The translations under genes were made by a program, and so were the position numbers. Below the pieces are notes generated by a model. The model saw only the letters and a program-made list of their open reading frames with translations, was not told the origin of the DNA and made no database searches. This document shows, one piece after another, positions 15,254 to 57,782 of a DNA stretch of 64,000 nt. This stretch comes from Escherichia coli (lineage in GTDB: Bacteria; Pseudomonadota; Gammaproteobacteria; Enterobacterales; Enterobacteriaceae): the NCBI RefSeq assembly GCF_013315695.1, contig NZ_CP054353.1. One strand, written 5' to 3'. Position 1 is the first letter of the stretch, and each line of letters opens with the position of its first letter.

Positions 15254-15383
15254 TAGTTAATTATCGACAGAGGTGTAATTGCTGGAAAAATGTCCATCAG
15301 CGGATTGTGGATAATTCGTTTGTCGGTCAGATAAGGCATGTACGCCGCATCCGACACGGTATGCGGCGACATATATCAGATAC

Positions 15384-16415
15384 TCAACCTTTCTTCGCCT
15401 GGCGGGTCATAATGGCGCGATACACCTTGAAGCGCCCGGTTTGCGCAATCACTTCGTGGAAACCAAATGTCTCATCCAGCACGTCCGGGTAAGGCAGGAA
15501 GGCGTTCGCTACAATTCGCAACTCGCCGCCGCTGTTAAGATGACGCACCGCGCCGCGAATCAGCGTTTGCGCCGCATCCAGGCTGGTTTGCATCCCATCG
15601 TGGAACGGCGGGTTGGAGATTATCATATCAAAGCGACCTTTCACCTCGGAAAAGACGTTGCTGGCAAAGACTTCACCTTCAACACTGTTGGCAGCAAGTG
15701 TTGCGCGACTGGCTTCTACCGCTGGTGCAGAGACATCGCACAGAGTGAGGCGGATCTTCGGTGAATGGCGCGCAAAAGCAACGGAAAGCACTCCCGCGCC
15801 GCAGCCGACATCCAGCACTTTACCTTTCGTGTGTGGAGTTAGCGTCGAGAGCAGCAACTGACTGCCGACATCCAGACCGTCGCGGCTAAACACGCCCGGC
15901 AGTGTTTTGACCGTCAAGCCATCGACGCTGTATTCGCCCCAGAATTTATTGGCATCAAATACCGGCTGCTTTTCCAGACGACCAAAATAGAGGCCACAGC
16001 GACGGGCGCTGTCCACCTTATTCAACGGTGCATAATCGGCCAGCATCTGCTCGGCGCTGCGCACGCCGCTGCGGTTCTCGCCAACGACAAAAATATCCGT
16101 GCCCACTGGCAGCAGAGAAAGTAAATTCATCAACTGGAACTGGGCTTCCGGTTTGTTCTTCGGCCAGTAGTAAATCAGCGTATCGCAATCTGCGACATCA
16201 TTCGCCGTGGCGACCAGACTAAAACGGGCGTTATCCCCCATCTGGCGGCTTAACACCTGCCAGTGGTGGAATTGCTGGGTATGAGCACGGCTGGCCGCGG
16301 TATCTAAACGCGCGGGCAGGTCATCCTGTAAGTCTCCGGCAAACAGAATACGGCTTTGTTCGAAATCATCACTGTGACGCAGCAAGACTTCACTTGCCGG
16401 GGTAAATGCAGACAT
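15384..16415 (-). CDS. rsmC: 16S rRNA (guanine1207-N2)-methyltransferase
   Basis: 343-aa ORF with SAM-binding motif [12 protein letters not shown] and NPPFH. Confidence 0.9.
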
Positions 16416-22975: not shown

Positions 22976-23091
22976 GCCGGACAAGGCGTTTACGCCGCAT
23001 CCGGCCGTTGGCGCACAATGCCTGATGCGACGCTTGACGCGTCTTATCATGCCTACAGGTCTGTGCCGATCCGTAGGCCACATCCGGCATG
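22976..23091. repeat. REP/BIME cluster between convergent yjjV and yjjW
   Basis: Three REP-like palindromic units (gccggacaaggcgtttacgccgcatccggc; gcctgatgcgacgcttgacgcgtcttatcatgcctac; gtaggccacatccggcatg). Confidence 0.75.
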
Positions 23092-35677: not shown

Positions 35678-36910
35678 ATGTCGTCATTTGATTACCTGAA
35701 AACTGCCATCAAGCAACAGGGCTGCACGCTACAGCAGGTAGCTGATGCCAGCGGTATGACCAAAGGGTATTTAAGCCAGTTACTGAATGCCAAAATTAAA
35801 AGCCCCAGCGCACAAAAGCTGGAGGCATTGCACCGTTATTTGGGACTTGAATTTCCCCGGCAGAAGAAAACGATCGGTGTCGTATTCGGTAAGTTTTACC
35901 CGCTGCATACTGGACATATCTACCTTATCCAGCGCGCCTGTAGCCAGGTTGACGAGCTGCATATCATTATGGGTTTTGACGATACCCGTGACCGCGCGTT
36001 GTTCGAAGACAGTGCCATGTCGCAGCAGCCGACCGTGCCGGATCGTCTGCGCTGGTTATTGCAAACTTTTAAATATCAGAAAAATATTCGCATTCATGCT
36101 TTCAACGAAGAGGGCATGGAGCCGTATCCGCACGGCTGGGATGTGTGGAGCAACGGTATCAAAAAGTTTATGGCTGAAAAAGGGATCCAGCCGGATCTGA
36201 TCTACACCTCGGAAGAAGCCGATGCGCCACAGTATATGGAACATCTGGGGATCGAGACGGTGCTGGTCGATCCGAAACGTACCTTTATGAGTATCAGCGG
36301 TGCGCAGATCCGCGAAAACCCGTTCCGCTACTGGGAATATATTCCTACCGAAGTGAAGCCGTTTTTTGTGCGTACCGTGGCGATCCTTGGCGGCGAGTCG
36401 AGCGGTAAATCCACCCTGGTAAACAAACTTGCCAATATCTTCAACACCACCAGTGCGTGGGAATATGGCCGCGATTATGTCTTTTCACACCTCGGTGGTG
36501 ATGAGATCGCATTGCAGTATTCCGACTACGATAAAATCGCGTTGGGCCACGCACAATACATTGATTTTGCAGTGAAATATGCCAATAAAGTGGCGTTTAT
36601 TGACACCGATTTTGTCACTACCCAGGCGTTCTGCAAAAAGTACGAAGGGCGTGAGCATCCGTTCGTGCAGGCGCTGATTGATGAATACCGTTTTGATCTG
36701 GTGATCCTGCTGGAGAACAACACGCCGTGGGTGGCGGATGGTTTACGCAGCCTCGGCAGTTCGGTGGATCGCAAAGAGTTCCAGAACTTGCTGGTGGAGA
36801 TGCTGGAAGAGAACAATATCGAATTTGTGCGGGTTGAAGAGGACGATTATGACAGCCGTTTCCTGCGCTGCGTGGAGCTGGTGCGGGAGATGATGGGGGA
36901 GCAAAGATAA
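35678..36910 (+). CDS. nadR: Trifunctional NAD regulator NadR (HTH / NMN adenylyltransferase / ribosylnicotinamide kinase)
   Basis: 410-aa from ATG 35678 after ggaggg; GGESSGKST P-loop. Confidence 0.95.
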   Translation: MSSFDYLKTAIKQQGCTLQQVADASGMTKGYLSQLLNAKIKSPSAQKLEALHRYLGLEFPRQKKTIGVVFGKFYPLHTGHIYLIQRACSQVDELHIIMGFDDTRDRALFEDSAMSQQPTVPDRLRWLLQTFKYQKNIRIHAFNEEGMEPYPHGWDVWSNGIKKFMAEKGIQPDLIYTSEEADAPQYMEHLGIETVLVDPKRTFMSISGAQIRENPFRYWEYIPTEVKPFFVRTVAILGGESSGKSTLVNKLANIFNTTSAWEYGRDYVFSHLGGDEIALQYSDYDKIALGHAQYIDFAVKYANKVAFIDTDFVTTQAFCKKYEGREHPFVQALIDEYRFDLVILLENNTPWVADGLRSLGSSVDRKEFQNLLVEMLEENNIEFVRVEEDDYDSRFLRCVELVREMMGEQR

Positions 36911-36943
36911 CCGTGACGAAACGGCTCAAAGGCGAGGTATAAA

Positions 36944-37228
36944 ATGAGTTTTTTTGATGAGTTGAAAACCTCTCTGGAAGAGGCTGTCGAGATTAAACAA
37001 GGTTTAAAAGAACCTGCACGGGTGACCCGCTACGAAATTGCGGATGTTAAAGCTATTCGTGAGCAACTCAACGTTTCTCAAAGTGAGATGGCAAAAGCTC
37101 TGGGAACCAGTGTAGATACCATTAAAAGCTGGGAATCGAAGCGAAGAAATCCTACGGGATTGGCTGCAAAAGTACTTGCCACAATTAAAGAAAATCTTGC
37201 CTTTTTCCGGGAACTTGCCTCCCATTAA
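36944..37228 (+). CDS. Small XRE-family HTH protein (YiaG/COG2944-like, antitoxin-like), no adjacent toxin
   Basis: 94-aa ORF with SD gaggt 5 nt upstream; HTH signature LNVSQSEMAKALGTSVDTIKSWESKRRNP; first 60 nt about 38 percent GC versus GC-rich flanks. Confidence 0.6.
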   Translation: MSFFDELKTSLEEAVEIKQGLKEPARVTRYEIADVKAIREQLNVSQSEMAKALGTSVDTIKSWESKRRNPTGLAAKVLATIKENLAFFRELASH

Positions 37229-37241
37229 TCATTTAACTATT

Positions 37242-37274
37242 ACCGGATGCGATGCTGGCGCGCCGCACCCGGCA
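37242..37274. repeat. REP-like palindromic unit
   Basis: accggatgcgatgctggcgcgccgcacccggca between the HTH ORF and the ettA stop. Confidence 0.55.
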
Positions 37275-37283
37275 TTTTACGCA

Positions 37284-38951
37284 TTACTTCGCAATACGCT
37301 TGTACTTGATACGCTTCGGCTCCAGCGCGTCTGCGCCCAGCGTGCGTTTTTTGTACTCTTCGTACTCGGTAAAGTTACCTTCGAAGAACTCAACTTTACC
37401 TTCATCCTGGTAATCCAGGATGTGCGTGGCGATACGGTCGAGGAACCAACGGTCGTGCGAGATAACCATCGCGCAGCCCGGGAACTCCAGCAGGGCGTTT
37501 TCCAGCGCGCGCAGGGTTTCGATATCCAGGTCGTTGGTTGGTTCGTCGAGCAGCAGCATGTTGCCGCCAACTTGCAGCAGCTTCGCCAGATGCAGACGAC
37601 CGCGCTCACCGCCGGAGAGTTCGCCAACGCGTTTACCCTGATCAACCCCTTTAAAGTTAAAGCGGCCAACGTAGGCGCGGCTTGGCATCTCGGTGTTGCC
37701 GATCTTCATGATATCCAGCCCGCCGGAAACTTCTTCCCAAACGGTTTTGCTGTTATCCATTGAGTCACGGAACTGATCAACCGATGCCAGTTTCACCGTT
37801 TCACCCAAAGTGATGGTGCCGCTGTCCGGCTGTTCCTGACCAGAGATCATACGGAACAGGGTCGATTTACCCGCACCGTTCGGACCGATGATCCCGACGA
37901 TCGCCCCTTTCGGGATCGAGAAACTCAGGTCATCAATCAGCAGACGATCGCCATAGGATTTACGCAGGTTGCTGACTTCCAGCACTTTATCGCCAAGACG
38001 CGGTCCAGGTGGAATAAACAGTTCGTTGGTTTCGTTACGTTTCTGATATTCGGTGCTGTTCAGCTCTTCAAAACGCGCCAGACGTGCTTTACCTTTCGAC
38101 TGGCGGCCTTTAGTTCCCTGACGTACCCACTCCAGCTCTTTCTCAATCGACTTACGACGCGCAGCTTCTTGTGAAGCTTCCTGCGCCAGACGTTGATCTT
38201 TCTGCTCCAGCCAGGAGGAGTAGTTACCTTCCCACGGAATACCTTCACCGCGGTCCAGTTCGAGGATCCAGCCTGCAACGTTATCAAGGAAGTAACGGTC
38301 GTGGGTAATCGCCACAACGGTGCCTTCGAAGTCGTGCAGGAAGCGTTCCAGCCAGGCCACGGATTCGGCATCCAGGTGGTTGGTCGGTTCGTCGAGCAGC
38401 AGCATGTCTGGTTTTTCCAGCAGCAGGCGGCACAACGCCACGCGACGACGCTCACCACCGGAGAGGTTAGCGATTTTCGCGTCCCAGTCCGGCAGACGCA
38501 GCGCATCCGCCGCACGCTCCAGCTGAACGTTCAGGTTGTGACCGTCGTGAGCCTGAATGATCTCTTCCAGACGGCCTTGTTCAGCGGCCAGCTTGTCAAA
38601 ATCGGCATCCGGATCGGCGTACAGCGCATACACTTCATCCAGGCGTTTCAGGGCGTTAACCACTTCAGAAACCGCTTCTTCAATGGACTCACGCACGGTG
38701 TGTTCCGGGTTCAGCTGCGGTTCCTGCGGCAGATAACCAATCTTGATATCCGGTTGCGGACGCGCTTCGCCTTCGATGTCTTTATCAATGCCCGCCATAA
38801 TGCGCAGCAGGGTGGACTTACCCGCGCCGTTCAGACCCAGGACACCAATTTTTGCCCCAGGGAAGAAACTCAGAGAGATGTTTTTCAAAATATGACGTTT
38901 CGGCGGAACAACTTTGCCGACACGATGCATGGTATAAACGAATTGAGCCAC
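37284..38951 (-). CDS. ettA: Energy-dependent translational throttle ABC-F protein
   Basis: 555-aa ORF with two ABC cassettes (GLNGAGKSTL, GPNGAGKSTL). Confidence 0.95.
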   Translation of the reverse strand: MAQFVYTMHRVGKVVPPKRHILKNISLSFFPGAKIGVLGLNGAGKSTLLRIMAGIDKDIEGEARPQPDIKIGYLPQEPQLNPEHTVRESIEEAVSEVVNALKRLDEVYALYADPDADFDKLAAEQGRLEEIIQAHDGHNLNVQLERAADALRLPDWDAKIANLSGGERRRVALCRLLLEKPDMLLLDEPTNHLDAESVAWLERFLHDFEGTVVAITHDRYFLDNVAGWILELDRGEGIPWEGNYSSWLEQKDQRLAQEASQEAARRKSIEKELEWVRQGTKGRQSKGKARLARFEELNSTEYQKRNETNELFIPPGPRLGDKVLEVSNLRKSYGDRLLIDDLSFSIPKGAIVGIIGPNGAGKSTLFRMISGQEQPDSGTITLGETVKLASVDQFRDSMDNSKTVWEEVSGGLDIMKIGNTEMPSRAYVGRFNFKGVDQGKRVGELSGGERGRLHLAKLLQVGGNMLLLDEPTNDLDIETLRALENALLEFPGCAMVISHDRWFLDRIATHILDYQDEGKVEFFEGNFTEYEEYKKRTLGADALEPKRIKYKRIAK

Positions 38952-49907: not shown

Positions 49908-50117
49908 AAAACGCCTTAGTAAGTATTTTTCAGCTTTTCATTCTGACTGCAACGGGCAATATGTCTCTGTGTGGATTAAAAAAAGAGTGTCTGATAGCAG
50001 CTTCTGAACTGGTTACCTGCCGTGAGTAAATTAAAATTTTATTGACTTAGGTCACTAAATACTTTAACCAATATAGGCATAGCGCACAGACAGATAAAAA
50101 TTACAGAGTACACAACA

Positions 50118-56345: not shown

Positions 56346-57782
56346 TTACTCCTGCGAAACGTCATCCCACGCGTCTGGAGAAAGCTGGCGACCGATCTCC
56401 GGATAACGCAACGGATCAAACACCGGGCGCACGCCGAGTTTACGCTGGCGTAGATAATCACTGGCAATGGTATGAACCACAGGCGAGAGCAGTAATATGG
56501 CGGTCAAATTGGTAATAGCCATGCAGGCCATTATGATATCTGCCAGTTGCCACATCAGCGGAAGACTTAGCAAGGTACCGCCGATGACCGTTGCGAAGGT
56601 GCAGATCCGCAGACACCAGATCGCTTTAGGGTTGTTCAGGCGTAAGAAGAAGAGATTGTTTTCGGCATAAATGTAGTTGGCAACGATGGAGCTGAAGGCA
56701 AACAGAATAACCACGAGGGTAACAAACTCCGCACCCCAGGAACCCATTAACACCCGCATCGCCTTCTGGATAAGCTGAATACCTTCCAGCGGCATGTAGG
56801 TTGTGCCGTTACCCGCCAGTAATATCAGCATGGCGCTTGCCGTACAGATGACCAGGGTGTCGATAAAAATGCCAATCATCTGGACAATTCCTTGCGCTGC
56901 CGGATGCGGAGGCCAGGACGCCGCTGCCGCTGCCGCTGCCGCGTTTGGCGTCGACCCCATTCCTGCCTCATTGGAAAACATACTGCGCTGAAAACCGTTA
57001 GTAATCGCCTGGCTTAAGGTATATCCCGCCGCGCCGCCTGCCGCTTCCTGCCAGCCAAAAGCACTCTCAAAAATAGACCAAATGACGTGGGGAAGTTGCC
57101 CGATATTCATTACGCAAATTACCAGGCTGGTCAGTACCCAGATTATCGCCATCAACGGGACAAACCCCTGCATGAGCCGGGCGACGCCATGAAGACCGCG
57201 AGTGATTGCCAGCAGAGCAAAGACAGCGAGAATAATGCCTGTCACCAGCGGAGGAAAATCAAAAGAAAAACTCAGGGCGCGGGCAACGGCGTTCGCCTGA
57301 ACTCCGCTGAAAATTATGCCGTAAGCGATGAGCAAAAAGAGGGCGAACAGAACGCCCATCCAGCGCATCCCCAGCCCGCGCGCCATATACCATGCCGGTC
57401 CGCCACGAAACTGCCCATTAACGTCACGTTCTTTATAAAGTTGTGCAAGGGAACATTCGGTAAACGAGGTCGCCATGCCGATAAACGCGGCAACCCACAT
57501 CCAGAAGACGGCACCTGGTCCACCGGCGGTAATAGCCAGCGCAACGCCAGCCAGGTTGCCGCTACCCACGCGCGCCGCAAGACTGGTACACAATGACTGA
57601 AATGAGGTTAAACCGCCTGGCTGTGGATGAATGCTATTTTTAAGACTTTTGCCAAACTGGCGGATGTAGCGAAACTGCACAAATCCGGTGCGAAAAGTGA
57701 ACCAACAACCTGCGCCGAAGAGCAGGTAAATCATTACCGATCCCCAAAGGACGCTGTTAATAAAGGAGAAAAAATCTGGCAT
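56346..57782 (-). CDS. yaaJ: Alanine/glycine:cation symporter family transporter
   Basis: 478-aa multi-TM ORF containing a poly-Ala stretch. Confidence 0.9.
   Translation of the reverse strand: MPDFFSFINSVLWGSVMIYLLFGAGCWFTFRTGFVQFRYIRQFGKSLKNSIHPQPGGLTSFQSLCTSLAARVGSGNLAGVALAITAGGPGAVFWMWVAAFIGMATSFTECSLAQLYKERDVNGQFRGGPAWYMARGLGMRWMGVLFALFLLIAYGIIFSGVQANAVARALSFSFDFPPLVTGIILAVFALLAITRGLHGVARLMQGFVPLMAIIWVLTSLVICVMNIGQLPHVIWSIFESAFGWQEAAGGAAGYTLSQAITNGFQRSMFSNEAGMGSTPNAAAAAAAASWPPHPAAQGIVQMIGIFIDTLVICTASAMLILLAGNGTTYMPLEGIQLIQKAMRVLMGSWGAEFVTLVVILFAFSSIVANYIYAENNLFFLRLNNPKAIWCLRICTFATVIGGTLLSLPLMWQLADIIMACMAITNLTAILLLSPVVHTIASDYLRQRKLGVRPVFDPLRYPEIGRQLSPDAWDDVSQE

What the first reader, a model, noticed from the sequence alone, without database searches (positions are those of the whole stretch)
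36911..37283. Low-GC orphan XRE-type HTH gene plus REP-like element between nadR and ettA
A 94-aa ORF with a good SD encodes a YiaG/COG2944-like HTH protein of the kind that usually serves as the antitoxin/regulator half of a type II toxin-antitoxin pair, but no toxin ORF fits on either side (nadR ends 33 bp upstream, ettA ends 55 bp downstream). The first 60 nt are about 38 percent GC against GC-rich neighbours, and a REP-like palindrome follows. This looks like a small horizontally acquired insert or a toxin-less remnant; I do not recall a gene here in K-12, but that is memory only.
Basis: partly seen in the sequence, partly recalled or inferred. Interest (0 to 1): 0.55.

Follow-up and report, generated by a model that had tools for sequence, protein, structure and literature searches.

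The report
Toxin-less antitoxin gene remnant (nadS)
The small gene between nadR and ettA is nadS, the surviving antitoxin half of a HigB2/HigA2-type toxin-antitoxin pair whose toxin gene and promoter were deleted; it is a known, ordinary stage of toxin-antitoxin decay in E. coli.

Summary
A 94-aa ORF (36944-37228, +) lies 33 bp after nadR and 55 bp before the end of ettA. It has low GC (42.8%; GC3 36% against about 61% in the neighbours) and is followed by a REP-type hairpin.

The protein is a full-length member of the curated NCBIfam family NadS (177 bits, cutoff 60). It carries an XRE helix-turn-helix, and its closest solved relative is V. cholerae antitoxin HigA-2.

Among 5426 complete E. 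coli genomes:
- 673 carry a 110-aa RelE-fold toxin (HigB-2-like, E 8e-16) between nadR and nadS.
- About 20 carry the window's toxin-less allele, including IAI39 and CE10.
- 3764 carry only a 38-codon nadS stump fused to REP sequence (K-12 type).
- The rest have nothing or other insertions.

The window still holds the last 30 nt of the toxin gene (36913-36942), which supplies nadS's ribosome-binding site. The conserved operator motif and the toxin are gone.

The orphan alleles carry only amino-acid or start-codon changes, including P85L in the window at a family-conserved proline. This suggests relaxed constraint.

The module also sits on small Col-type plasmids, so an anti-addiction role is possible but untested.

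Novelty and interest are low.

The parts
35678..36910 (+). nadR (context). It is the upstream gene whose read-through is the only evident source of nadS transcription.
   Evidence: ORF list. RefSeq annotation of the identical locus gives a 1233-nt nadR. No sigma-70-like promoter was found in 36500-37400.
36911..36913 (+). Deletion junction (CCG). These 3 nt match neither side of the intact TA allele.
   Evidence: Alignment A1 of four alleles. The same junction occurs in K-12-type and all sampled orphan alleles.
36913..36942 (+). 3'-terminal remnant of the deleted HigB2-like toxin gene: 9 codons plus the TAA stop, read as V T K R L K G E V *. It contains the nadS Shine-Dalgarno AAGGCGAGG at 36929-36937.
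   Evidence: 27 of 30 nt are identical to the toxin 3' end in strain GTEN_97 (L T K L L K G E I *).
36944..37228 (+). nadS: a 94-aa HigA2-type antitoxin (XRE HTH at residues ~35-85, with a putative toxin-binding N-terminal segment at 1-32). It carries P85L relative to the common allele.
   Evidence: NCBIfam NF041265 177.3 bits against a cutoff of 60. Pfam HTH_3 E 6.1e-10. PDB HigA-2 E 1.8e-5. The top Foldseek hits are HigA2. P85 is Pro in the 19 other family members aligned.
37241..37274 (-). REP-type imperfect palindrome just past the ettA stop codon. It is probably the ettA mRNA 3' hairpin.
   Evidence: Fold of -24.7 kcal/mol, z = -3.3. REP head motif with 1 mismatch at 37260-37274, 6 copies in the window against 0.31 expected. 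The right arm is shared with the canonical REP of the K-12 and empty alleles. No Rfam family matches.
37284..38951 (-). ettA (context), convergent with nadS.
   Evidence: ORF list and RefSeq annotation of the identical locus.

Best explanation
The ORF is nadS, the antitoxin gene of a HigB2/HigA2-type type II toxin-antitoxin islet that sits at the nadR-ettA spacer in part of the species.

In the intact allele the order is: a 91-bp control region with two GTGTAC-N3-GTAC repeats, a 110-aa RelE-fold toxin gene, one base, then nadS.

In the window a net 392-bp deletion removed the control region and all but the last 30 nt of the toxin gene. That remnant still provides the ribosome-binding site. nadS now lies 33 nt behind the nadR stop codon.

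Shown: the homology, the deletion junction, the loss of operator and toxin, and the population distribution.

Inferred:
- nadS is now transcribed only by read-through from nadR.
- The protein could still bind a cognate toxin through its N-terminal segment and GTGTAC-type DNA through its HTH dimer.
- With no cognate toxin or operator left, it has no current job and is drifting towards the truncated state seen in K-12-type genomes.
- The shape of the deletion (ribosome-binding site kept, gene fused just behind an expressed upstream gene) may reflect a survival filter. Cells that delete a toxin gene must keep making antitoxin until the pre-existing toxin is diluted out.
For: Identity:
- NadS model 177 bits against a cutoff of 60; HTH_3; HigA-2 is the best PDB match by sequence and by fold.
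- The allelic toxin is Pfam PF06296 and matches HigB-2 at E 8.4e-16.

Allele series at the same locus:
- Toxin plus nadS in 673 genomes.
- Orphan nadS in about 20 genomes: 693 minus 673, with 19 seen directly.
- nadS stump plus REPs in 3764 genomes.
- Empty or other in the remainder.

Origin and mobility:
- The toxin 3' remnant and an identical junction occur in orphan and K-12 alleles.
- E. fergusonii has the intact pair at the same site.
- Hafnia, Kosakonia and Leclercia carry the pair at other sites. Col-type plasmids carry it too.

Operator:
- GTGTAC-N3-GTAC occurs in every fetched locus that keeps the region upstream of the toxin gene, and nowhere else in 153 kb examined (0.29 expected). 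The window has none.
- The experimentally mapped V. cholerae HigA2 operator has TGTAC half-sites overlapping the -10 element (PMC11006873).

Relaxed constraint:
- The derived changes within sampled orphan alleles are P85L, S2G and ATG to TTG, with no synonymous change. P85 is conserved in 19 of 19 relatives.
- The K-12 stump has 5 non-synonymous against 2 synonymous changes, including family-invariant Y30 and A33.

Expression and cognate toxin:
- Translation of the K-12 stump, which has the same leader, was reported by PIRT-seq (PMC12350097).
- Only 9 further genomes hold a DNA-detectable paralogue of the toxin.
Against: - The ORF is still intact in all 19 orphan genomes seen, and in three sampled lineages the protein is identical to the toxin-linked one. 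Decay is therefore slight and selection cannot be excluded.
- The selection argument rests on three substitutions.
- Intact NadS after toxin loss or decay recurs in Leclercia, Pectobacterium and Sodalis. This fits simple toxin-first decay but also a retained function.
- Transcription by nadR read-through was not measured.
- No consensus promoter was recognised even in the intact allele, so the promoter assignment is inferred.
- More distant PF06296 toxins elsewhere in the host genome were not searched at protein level.
Confidence: 0.7

Rival explanations
1. Anti-addiction factor. The orphan NadS is kept because it neutralises HigB2-like toxins brought in by small Col-type plasmids. This would free the cell from post-segregational killing when such a plasmid is lost.
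For: - Toxin plus NadS modules lie next to the rep and mob genes of 4-7 kb MOBP plasmids in Shigella boydii, Citrobacter, Yersinia, Pectobacterium, Hafnia and Klebsiella.
- The plasmid toxins are 76-81% identical to the E. coli chromosomal proteins, and plasmid NadS is 81-83% identical. The N-terminal 32 residues are almost unchanged.
- Intact orphan NadS recurs in several genera.
- The idea is discussed generally for orphan antitoxins (PMC10790755).
Against: - Such plasmids are rare in E. coli: 11 plasmid places in 5426 genomes.
- The orphan allele is itself rare, at about 0.4%. Most of the species (3764 genomes, 69%) has let the gene decay to a stump with changes at invariant residues.
- Orphan alleles carry P85L, S2G and a weakened start codon.
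- No cross-neutralisation data exist.
Confidence: 0.2
2. Domesticated transcription factor. Now fused to the nadR transcription unit, NadS has been recruited to regulate other chromosomal genes.
For: - The HTH is intact.
- The gene lies directly behind nadR and is probably co-transcribed with it.
- The curated family name links it to nadR.
Against: - The family's conserved DNA motif is absent from the 64-kb window, apart from one chance-level 1-mismatch hit.
- Adjacency to nadR is specific to Escherichia. Elsewhere the gene lies at unrelated loci and on plasmids, paired with the toxin or with its decayed remnant.
- Most E. coli lack the HTH part altogether.
Confidence: 0.06
3. Independent horizontal insertion of a lone antitoxin-like gene into an originally empty nadR-ettA spacer.
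For: Low GC and GC3. The spacer is a hot spot that takes up islands and IS26 in other strains.
Against: - The 30 nt upstream of nadS are the 3' end of the toxin gene of the intact allele at the same locus.
- nadS differs from the toxin-linked gene by only 3 nt.
- The right-hand flank is identical to that of the intact allele.
Confidence: 0.02

Closest known systems
NadS family (NCBIfam NF041265), as annotated by PGAP in E. coli (WP_000007435.1 / WP_000007436.1)
   Same: Full-length match over residues 1-94 at 177 bits. The identical locus in RefSeq genomes is already annotated nadS.
   Different: None in sequence class. The window's allele differs by P85L from the common protein. No tested function was found for the family in the library searched: the PIRT-seq paper says nadS is not listed in EcoCyc and reports the first laboratory evidence of its expression.
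parE-3/yiaG-2 (TA30) of AIEC/CFT073-type E. coli, in the nadR-ettA spacer (Bustamante and Vidal 2020, PMC7232551)
   Same: Same locus and the same antitoxin gene. [quoted passage not shown]
   Different: The window has only the antitoxin. The toxin is PF06296/HigB-2-like by profile and PDB matches, rather than the ParE name given to it in that paper.
Vibrio cholerae HigB2/HigA2 (PDB 5jaa, 5j9i, 8a0x; PMC5416850, PMC11006873)
   Same: - Toxin-first gene order.
- RelE-fold toxin (E 8.4e-16 to the allelic toxin).
- Antitoxin with an N-terminal segment plus a C-terminal XRE HTH (E 1.8e-5).
- Operator with TGTAC half-sites.
   Different: About 27-31% identity only. The operator spacing differs (TGTACGC-N5-GCGTACA against GTGTAC-N3-GTAC). 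The NadS N-terminal segment does not align at sequence level. No toxin or operator is present in the window.
E. coli YiaG (PRK10072 / NF007481) and MqsA (TIGR03830)
   Same: Same XRE-HTH subgroup (COG2944-like). YiaG E 5.9e-11 and MqsA HTH E 1.3e-8.
   Different: Both score below their curated cutoffs (42.7 against 110; 34.7 against 61.8). NadS lacks the MqsA zinc-binding N-terminal domain.
Chromosomal anti-addiction modules and orphan antitoxins (the concept of Saavedra De Bast et al. 2008, cited from my own knowledge; surveyed for E. coli in PMC10790755)
   Same: A chromosomal antitoxin homologous to a plasmid-borne addiction module.
   Different: No functional evidence exists here. The classical example keeps both toxin and antitoxin.

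Membership tests
NadS family (NCBIfam NF041265) | Whole-protein HMM score above the curated cutoff, with end-to-end alignment | tested here: met
   177.3 bits against a cutoff of 60; residues 1-94 match profile positions 1-94 of 94.
HigA2-type antitoxin (type II TA, toxin-first order) | C-terminal XRE helix-turn-helix DNA-binding and dimerisation domain | tested here: met
   Pfam HTH_3 E 6.1e-10. HigA-2 chains E 1.8e-5 over residues 33-84. The Foldseek top 8 hits are all HigA2, although the model is weak at pLDDT 59.9.
HigA2-type antitoxin (type II TA, toxin-first order) | N-terminal intrinsically disordered toxin-neutralising segment | tested here: inconclusive
   Residues 1-32 lie outside the HTH and have pLDDT below 50-55 in the AF2 model. 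The alignment was shallow, and there is no sequence-level alignment to the HigA2 disordered region.
HigA2-type antitoxin (type II TA, toxin-first order) | Cognate RelE-fold toxin gene immediately upstream | tested here: not met
   Only a 30-nt 3' remnant remains in the window. tblastn of the toxin against the window gives E > 3. The feature is met in the allelic locus of 673 E. coli genomes.
HigA2-type antitoxin (type II TA, toxin-first order) | Autoregulated promoter/operator upstream of the operon | tested here: not met
   GTGTAC-N3-GTAC is present upstream of the toxin gene in every fetched locus that retains that region. It is absent from the window and from all E. coli orphan alleles.
HigA2-type antitoxin (type II TA, toxin-first order) | Neutralises its toxin and represses its operator | not testable with these tools
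   This needs co-expression, EMSA or reporter assays.
YiaG (NF007481 / PRK10072) | HMM score above the curated cutoff | tested here: not met
   42.7 bits against a cutoff of 110.
MqsA (TIGR03830) | HMM score above the cutoff and an N-terminal CxxCG zinc-binding domain | tested here: not met
   34.7 bits against 61.8. Only the HTH part aligns (profile positions 67-126), and the 94-aa sequence contains no cysteine.
REP / BIME elements of E. coli | Imperfect palindrome with the conserved GCCGGATGCGGCG head, repeated in extragenic positions | tested here: met
   1 mismatch at 37260-37274; 6 copies in the window against 0.31 expected. 12-pair hairpin. The right arm is homologous to the canonical REP in the K-12 and empty alleles. 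The left arm is atypical.

The most novel reading that the evidence does not exclude
Orphan NadS, re-wired behind nadR after loss of its own promoter, is maintained as an anti-addiction (or otherwise trans-acting) antitoxin against the HigB2-NadS modules of small Col-type plasmids that circulate in Enterobacterales. On this reading, the recurrent toxin-less NadS genes in E. coli, Leclercia and Pectobacterium (there between cas3 and cse1), and the intact NadS beside a frameshifted toxin in Sodalis, reflect selection rather than passive decay.
Probability: 0.15. Interest if true: 0.45.

Novelty: already known. Interest (0 to 1): 0.18.

Why it matters
Little is at stake. The gene family is curated, the TA pair at this locus has been described, and orphan antitoxins are common in E. 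coli.

The modest value is a clean, fully resolved decay series at one chromosomal site: intact pair, then orphan antitoxin, then REP-truncated stump, then empty. The junctions are shared between stages. This series could serve as a natural test bed for two questions. Are orphan antitoxins retained by selection (anti-addiction) or only transiently? And do toxin deletions survive only when antitoxin expression is preserved?

Tried and rejected
- Rfam scan of 36700-37500 at E <= 1: no RNA family.
- Sigma-70 promoter scan of 36500-37400: none found. None was recognised in the control region of the intact allele either, so promoter positions stay inferred.
- The repeat finder did not report the palindrome because of its mismatch. 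Folding did.
- tblastn for a toxin anywhere in the window: nothing.
- Operator-motif search in the window: one chance-level hit at 50101.
- AlphaFold2 with a 20-sequence alignment gave a weak model (pLDDT 59.9). It is used only as soft support.
- I considered that the translated K-12 55-aa stump might be a selected mini-antitoxin made of the toxin-binding segment alone. I rejected this. The stump has 5 non-synonymous against 2 synonymous changes, including family-invariant Y30 and A33. The spacer also diverges to 92% within the type.
- I considered YiaG or MqsA membership and rejected both on curated cutoffs.
- The PIRT-seq supplements held no further nadS data.

Full report
**Observation**

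The window has a 94-aa ATG-initiated ORF at 36944-37228 on the + strand. nadR stops at 36910 and the convergent ettA ends at 37284, leaving gaps of 33 and 55 bp. The ORF is 42.8% GC, and its first 60 nt are 38.3% GC. GC3 is 35.8%, against 61-62% in nadR and ettA.

Downstream, 37241-37274 forms a 12-pair hairpin on the ettA-sense strand (-24.7 kcal/mol, z -3.3). Its ettA-proximal arm carries the REP head motif with one mismatch. That motif occurs six times in the window against 0.31 expected.

**Identity of the protein**

- It matches the curated NCBIfam equivalog NadS (NF041265) end to end at 177 bits, against a cutoff of 60.
- YiaG (42.7 against 110) and MqsA (34.7 against 61.8) are related but fall below their cutoffs.
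- Pfam finds an XRE HTH (HTH_3, E 6.1e-10).
- The best solved relative is V. cholerae antitoxin HigA-2 (E 1.8e-5, residues 33-84).
- An AlphaFold2 model was weak (pLDDT 59.9), but its top eight PDB matches are all HigA2.

**What the locus looks like in other E. coli**

Census of 5426 complete genomes:

| Allele | Genomes |
|---|---|
| Toxin gene between nadR and nadS (single chromosomal copy) | 673 |
| Full-length nadS in total | 693 |
| Orphan full-length nadS, as in the window | about 20 (19 seen as single 801-bp matches) |
| K-12-type 307-bp spacer with nadS stump | 3764 |
| BIME-only 120-bp spacer, a metabolic islet, or IS26/ICE insertions | remainder |

- The toxin gene is 333 bp and is separated from nadS by one base.
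- The toxin is Pfam PF06296 and matches HigB-2 structures at E 8.4e-16.
- The orphan set includes IAI39, CE10, MSB1_4I and the 100%-identical NZ_OZ547117.1.
- In the K-12 type, PGAP annotates a nadS pseudogene. It consists of 38 NadS codons fused to REP sequence, giving a 55-aa ORF.
- The paired allele was described earlier as parE-3/yiaG-2 (TA30) in AIEC/CFT073-type strains, with K-12 noted as lacking it (PMC7232551).
- From my own knowledge, CFT073, E2348/69 and NU14 belong to phylogroup B2, and IAI39 and CE10 to phylogroup F.

**How the orphan arose**

Aligning the four alleles shows that the window's 33-nt leader is not generic intergenic DNA. Positions 36913-36942 are the last nine codons plus the stop of the toxin gene, identical at 27 of 30 nt. 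They contain the AAGGCGAGG ribosome-binding site.

A net 392 bp are missing. These comprise the 91-bp region upstream of the toxin and all but the last 30 nt of its coding sequence. The junction lies directly after the nadR stop codon, with three unmatched bases (CCG).

The same junction occurs in every sampled orphan allele and in the K-12 stump. Toxin loss therefore preceded the REP-associated truncation of nadS. E. fergusonii has the intact pair at the same site.

**Lost control region**

The motif GTGTAC-N3-GTAC lies 30-90 bp upstream of the toxin start in:
- E. coli and E. fergusonii (two copies each)
- Hafnia
- Leclercia
- Sodalis
- the Shigella and Citrobacter plasmids

It occurs nowhere else in the 153 kb of sequence examined, where 0.29 hits are expected. 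It is absent from the window and from all E. coli orphan alleles.

The experimentally mapped operator of V. cholerae HigA2 is TGTACGC-N5-GCGTACA and overlaps the -10 element (PMC11006873). The shared TGTAC half-site makes an operator role likely here, but this is inferred.

Without its control region, and with no promoter-like site nearby, nadS in the window can only be expressed by read-through from nadR. Translation of the K-12 stump, which has the same leader, was reported by PIRT-seq (PMC12350097).

**Mobility of the module**

NadS proteins that are 82-90% identical occur in Hafnia, Leclercia, Kosakonia, Pectobacterium, Sodalis and others. They sit at unrelated chromosomal sites, and most have the PF06296 toxin directly upstream.

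The pair also sits beside the rep and mob genes of 4-7 kb MOBP Col-type plasmids. Hosts include Shigella boydii, Citrobacter, Yersinia ruckeri, Pectobacterium, Hafnia and Klebsiella. Their toxins are 76-81% identical, and their NadS 81-83% identical, to the E. coli chromosomal proteins.

This mobility explains the foreign composition of the gene.

**Is the orphan still under selection?**

Relative to the toxin-linked gene, the orphan clade shares one synonymous change. Its sampled haplotypes then carry P85L (the window), S2G (PI24) and ATG to TTG (IAI39, 2014C-3075), with no further synonymous change.

P85 is proline in all 19 other family members aligned. The K-12 stump has five non-synonymous against two synonymous changes, including invariant Y30 and A33. 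Its spacer diverges to about 92% within the type.

These small counts favour relaxed constraint. On the other side, the ORF is intact in all orphan genomes seen, and three lineages encode a protein identical to the paired one.

Toxin loss or decay with intact NadS recurs in other genera:
- A polymorphic deletion in Leclercia that keeps the operator.
- A frameshifted toxin in Sodalis.
- A lone nadS between cas3 and cse1 in Pectobacterium.

This pattern is expected if toxins must be inactivated before antitoxins can be lost. It does not by itself show function.

**Mechanism and rivals**

Most likely (about 0.7), the gene is a relic. It is a still-competent HigA2-type antitoxin with neither toxin nor operator to act on. 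It is expressed at a low level behind nadR and is on the path to the K-12 state.

The form of the deletion keeps the ribosome-binding site and abuts an expressed upstream gene. This may reflect the need to keep making antitoxin while residual toxin is diluted out. That step is inference.

The main rival (about 0.2) is an anti-addiction role against the plasmid-borne modules. It is plausible from sequence similarity. It is weakened by the rarity of such plasmids in E. coli, with 11 plasmid places and 9 extra genomes, and by the rarity and incipient decay of the orphan allele.

Recruitment as a regulator (about 0.06) and independent insertion of a lone antitoxin (about 0.02) are poorly supported.

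**Verdict**

The feature is already known in kind. It is annotated in RefSeq, and the parent TA pair at this locus is published. Interest is low.

Noticed in passing
L002 745-912 (K-12 MG1655 nadR-ettA spacer): K-12-type genomes (3764 of 5426) carry a 55-aa ORF made of the first 38 NadS codons fused to a REP-encoded tail. PIRT-seq reported it as translated (PMC12350097). It carries changes at family-invariant residues Y30 and A33.
   Followed up: partly
L025 2446-3345 (Pectobacterium brasiliense): An orphan NadS gene (2501-2785) sits between cas3 and cse1 of a type I-E CRISPR-Cas locus. No toxin is called, and the leader looks like a toxin 3' remnant.
   Followed up: partly
L008/L010 2803-3001 versus L009 2622-2999 (Leclercia adecarboxylata): The toxin gene is present or deleted within one species, with an identical NadS protein. 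Unlike E. coli, the deletion keeps the GTGTAC operator-like palindrome.
   Followed up: partly
L027 2168-2514 (Sodalis ligni): The toxin gene is frameshifted (only a 62-aa PF06296 fragment is called). The operator motif and the 94-aa NadS remain intact.
   Followed up: no
L014 445 and L017 445 (E. coli IAI39, 2014C-3075): The orphan nadS start codon is mutated from ATG to TTG in these lineages.
   Followed up: no
L021 3459-6311; L022 3343-6280: The nadR-ettA spacer is an integration hot spot. Strain E597 has an islet (DUF1471, SRPBCC, SDR and aldo/keto reductase genes) after a frameshifted nadS stump. Strain JSWP021 has IS26 followed by ICE genes.
   Followed up: no
L001 752-786; L019 1465; L020 171; L005 2612-2645: A conserved GTGTAC-N3-GTAC motif lies upstream of every toxin-NadS operon. 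It shares the TGTAC half-site of the mapped V. cholerae HigA2 operator but with different spacing.
   Followed up: partly
window 15342-15356, 15796-15810, 22992-23033, 56898-56912: Other REP head-motif copies occur in the window, including an adjacent inverted pair at 22992-23033 that looks like a BIME.
   Followed up: no
PLSDB record NZ_CP134663.1 (hit H101): A 4.9-Mb E. coli record is filed in the plasmid collection. It is evidently a chromosome, and it gave the only hit at 95% identity or above to the toxin in that search.
   Followed up: no
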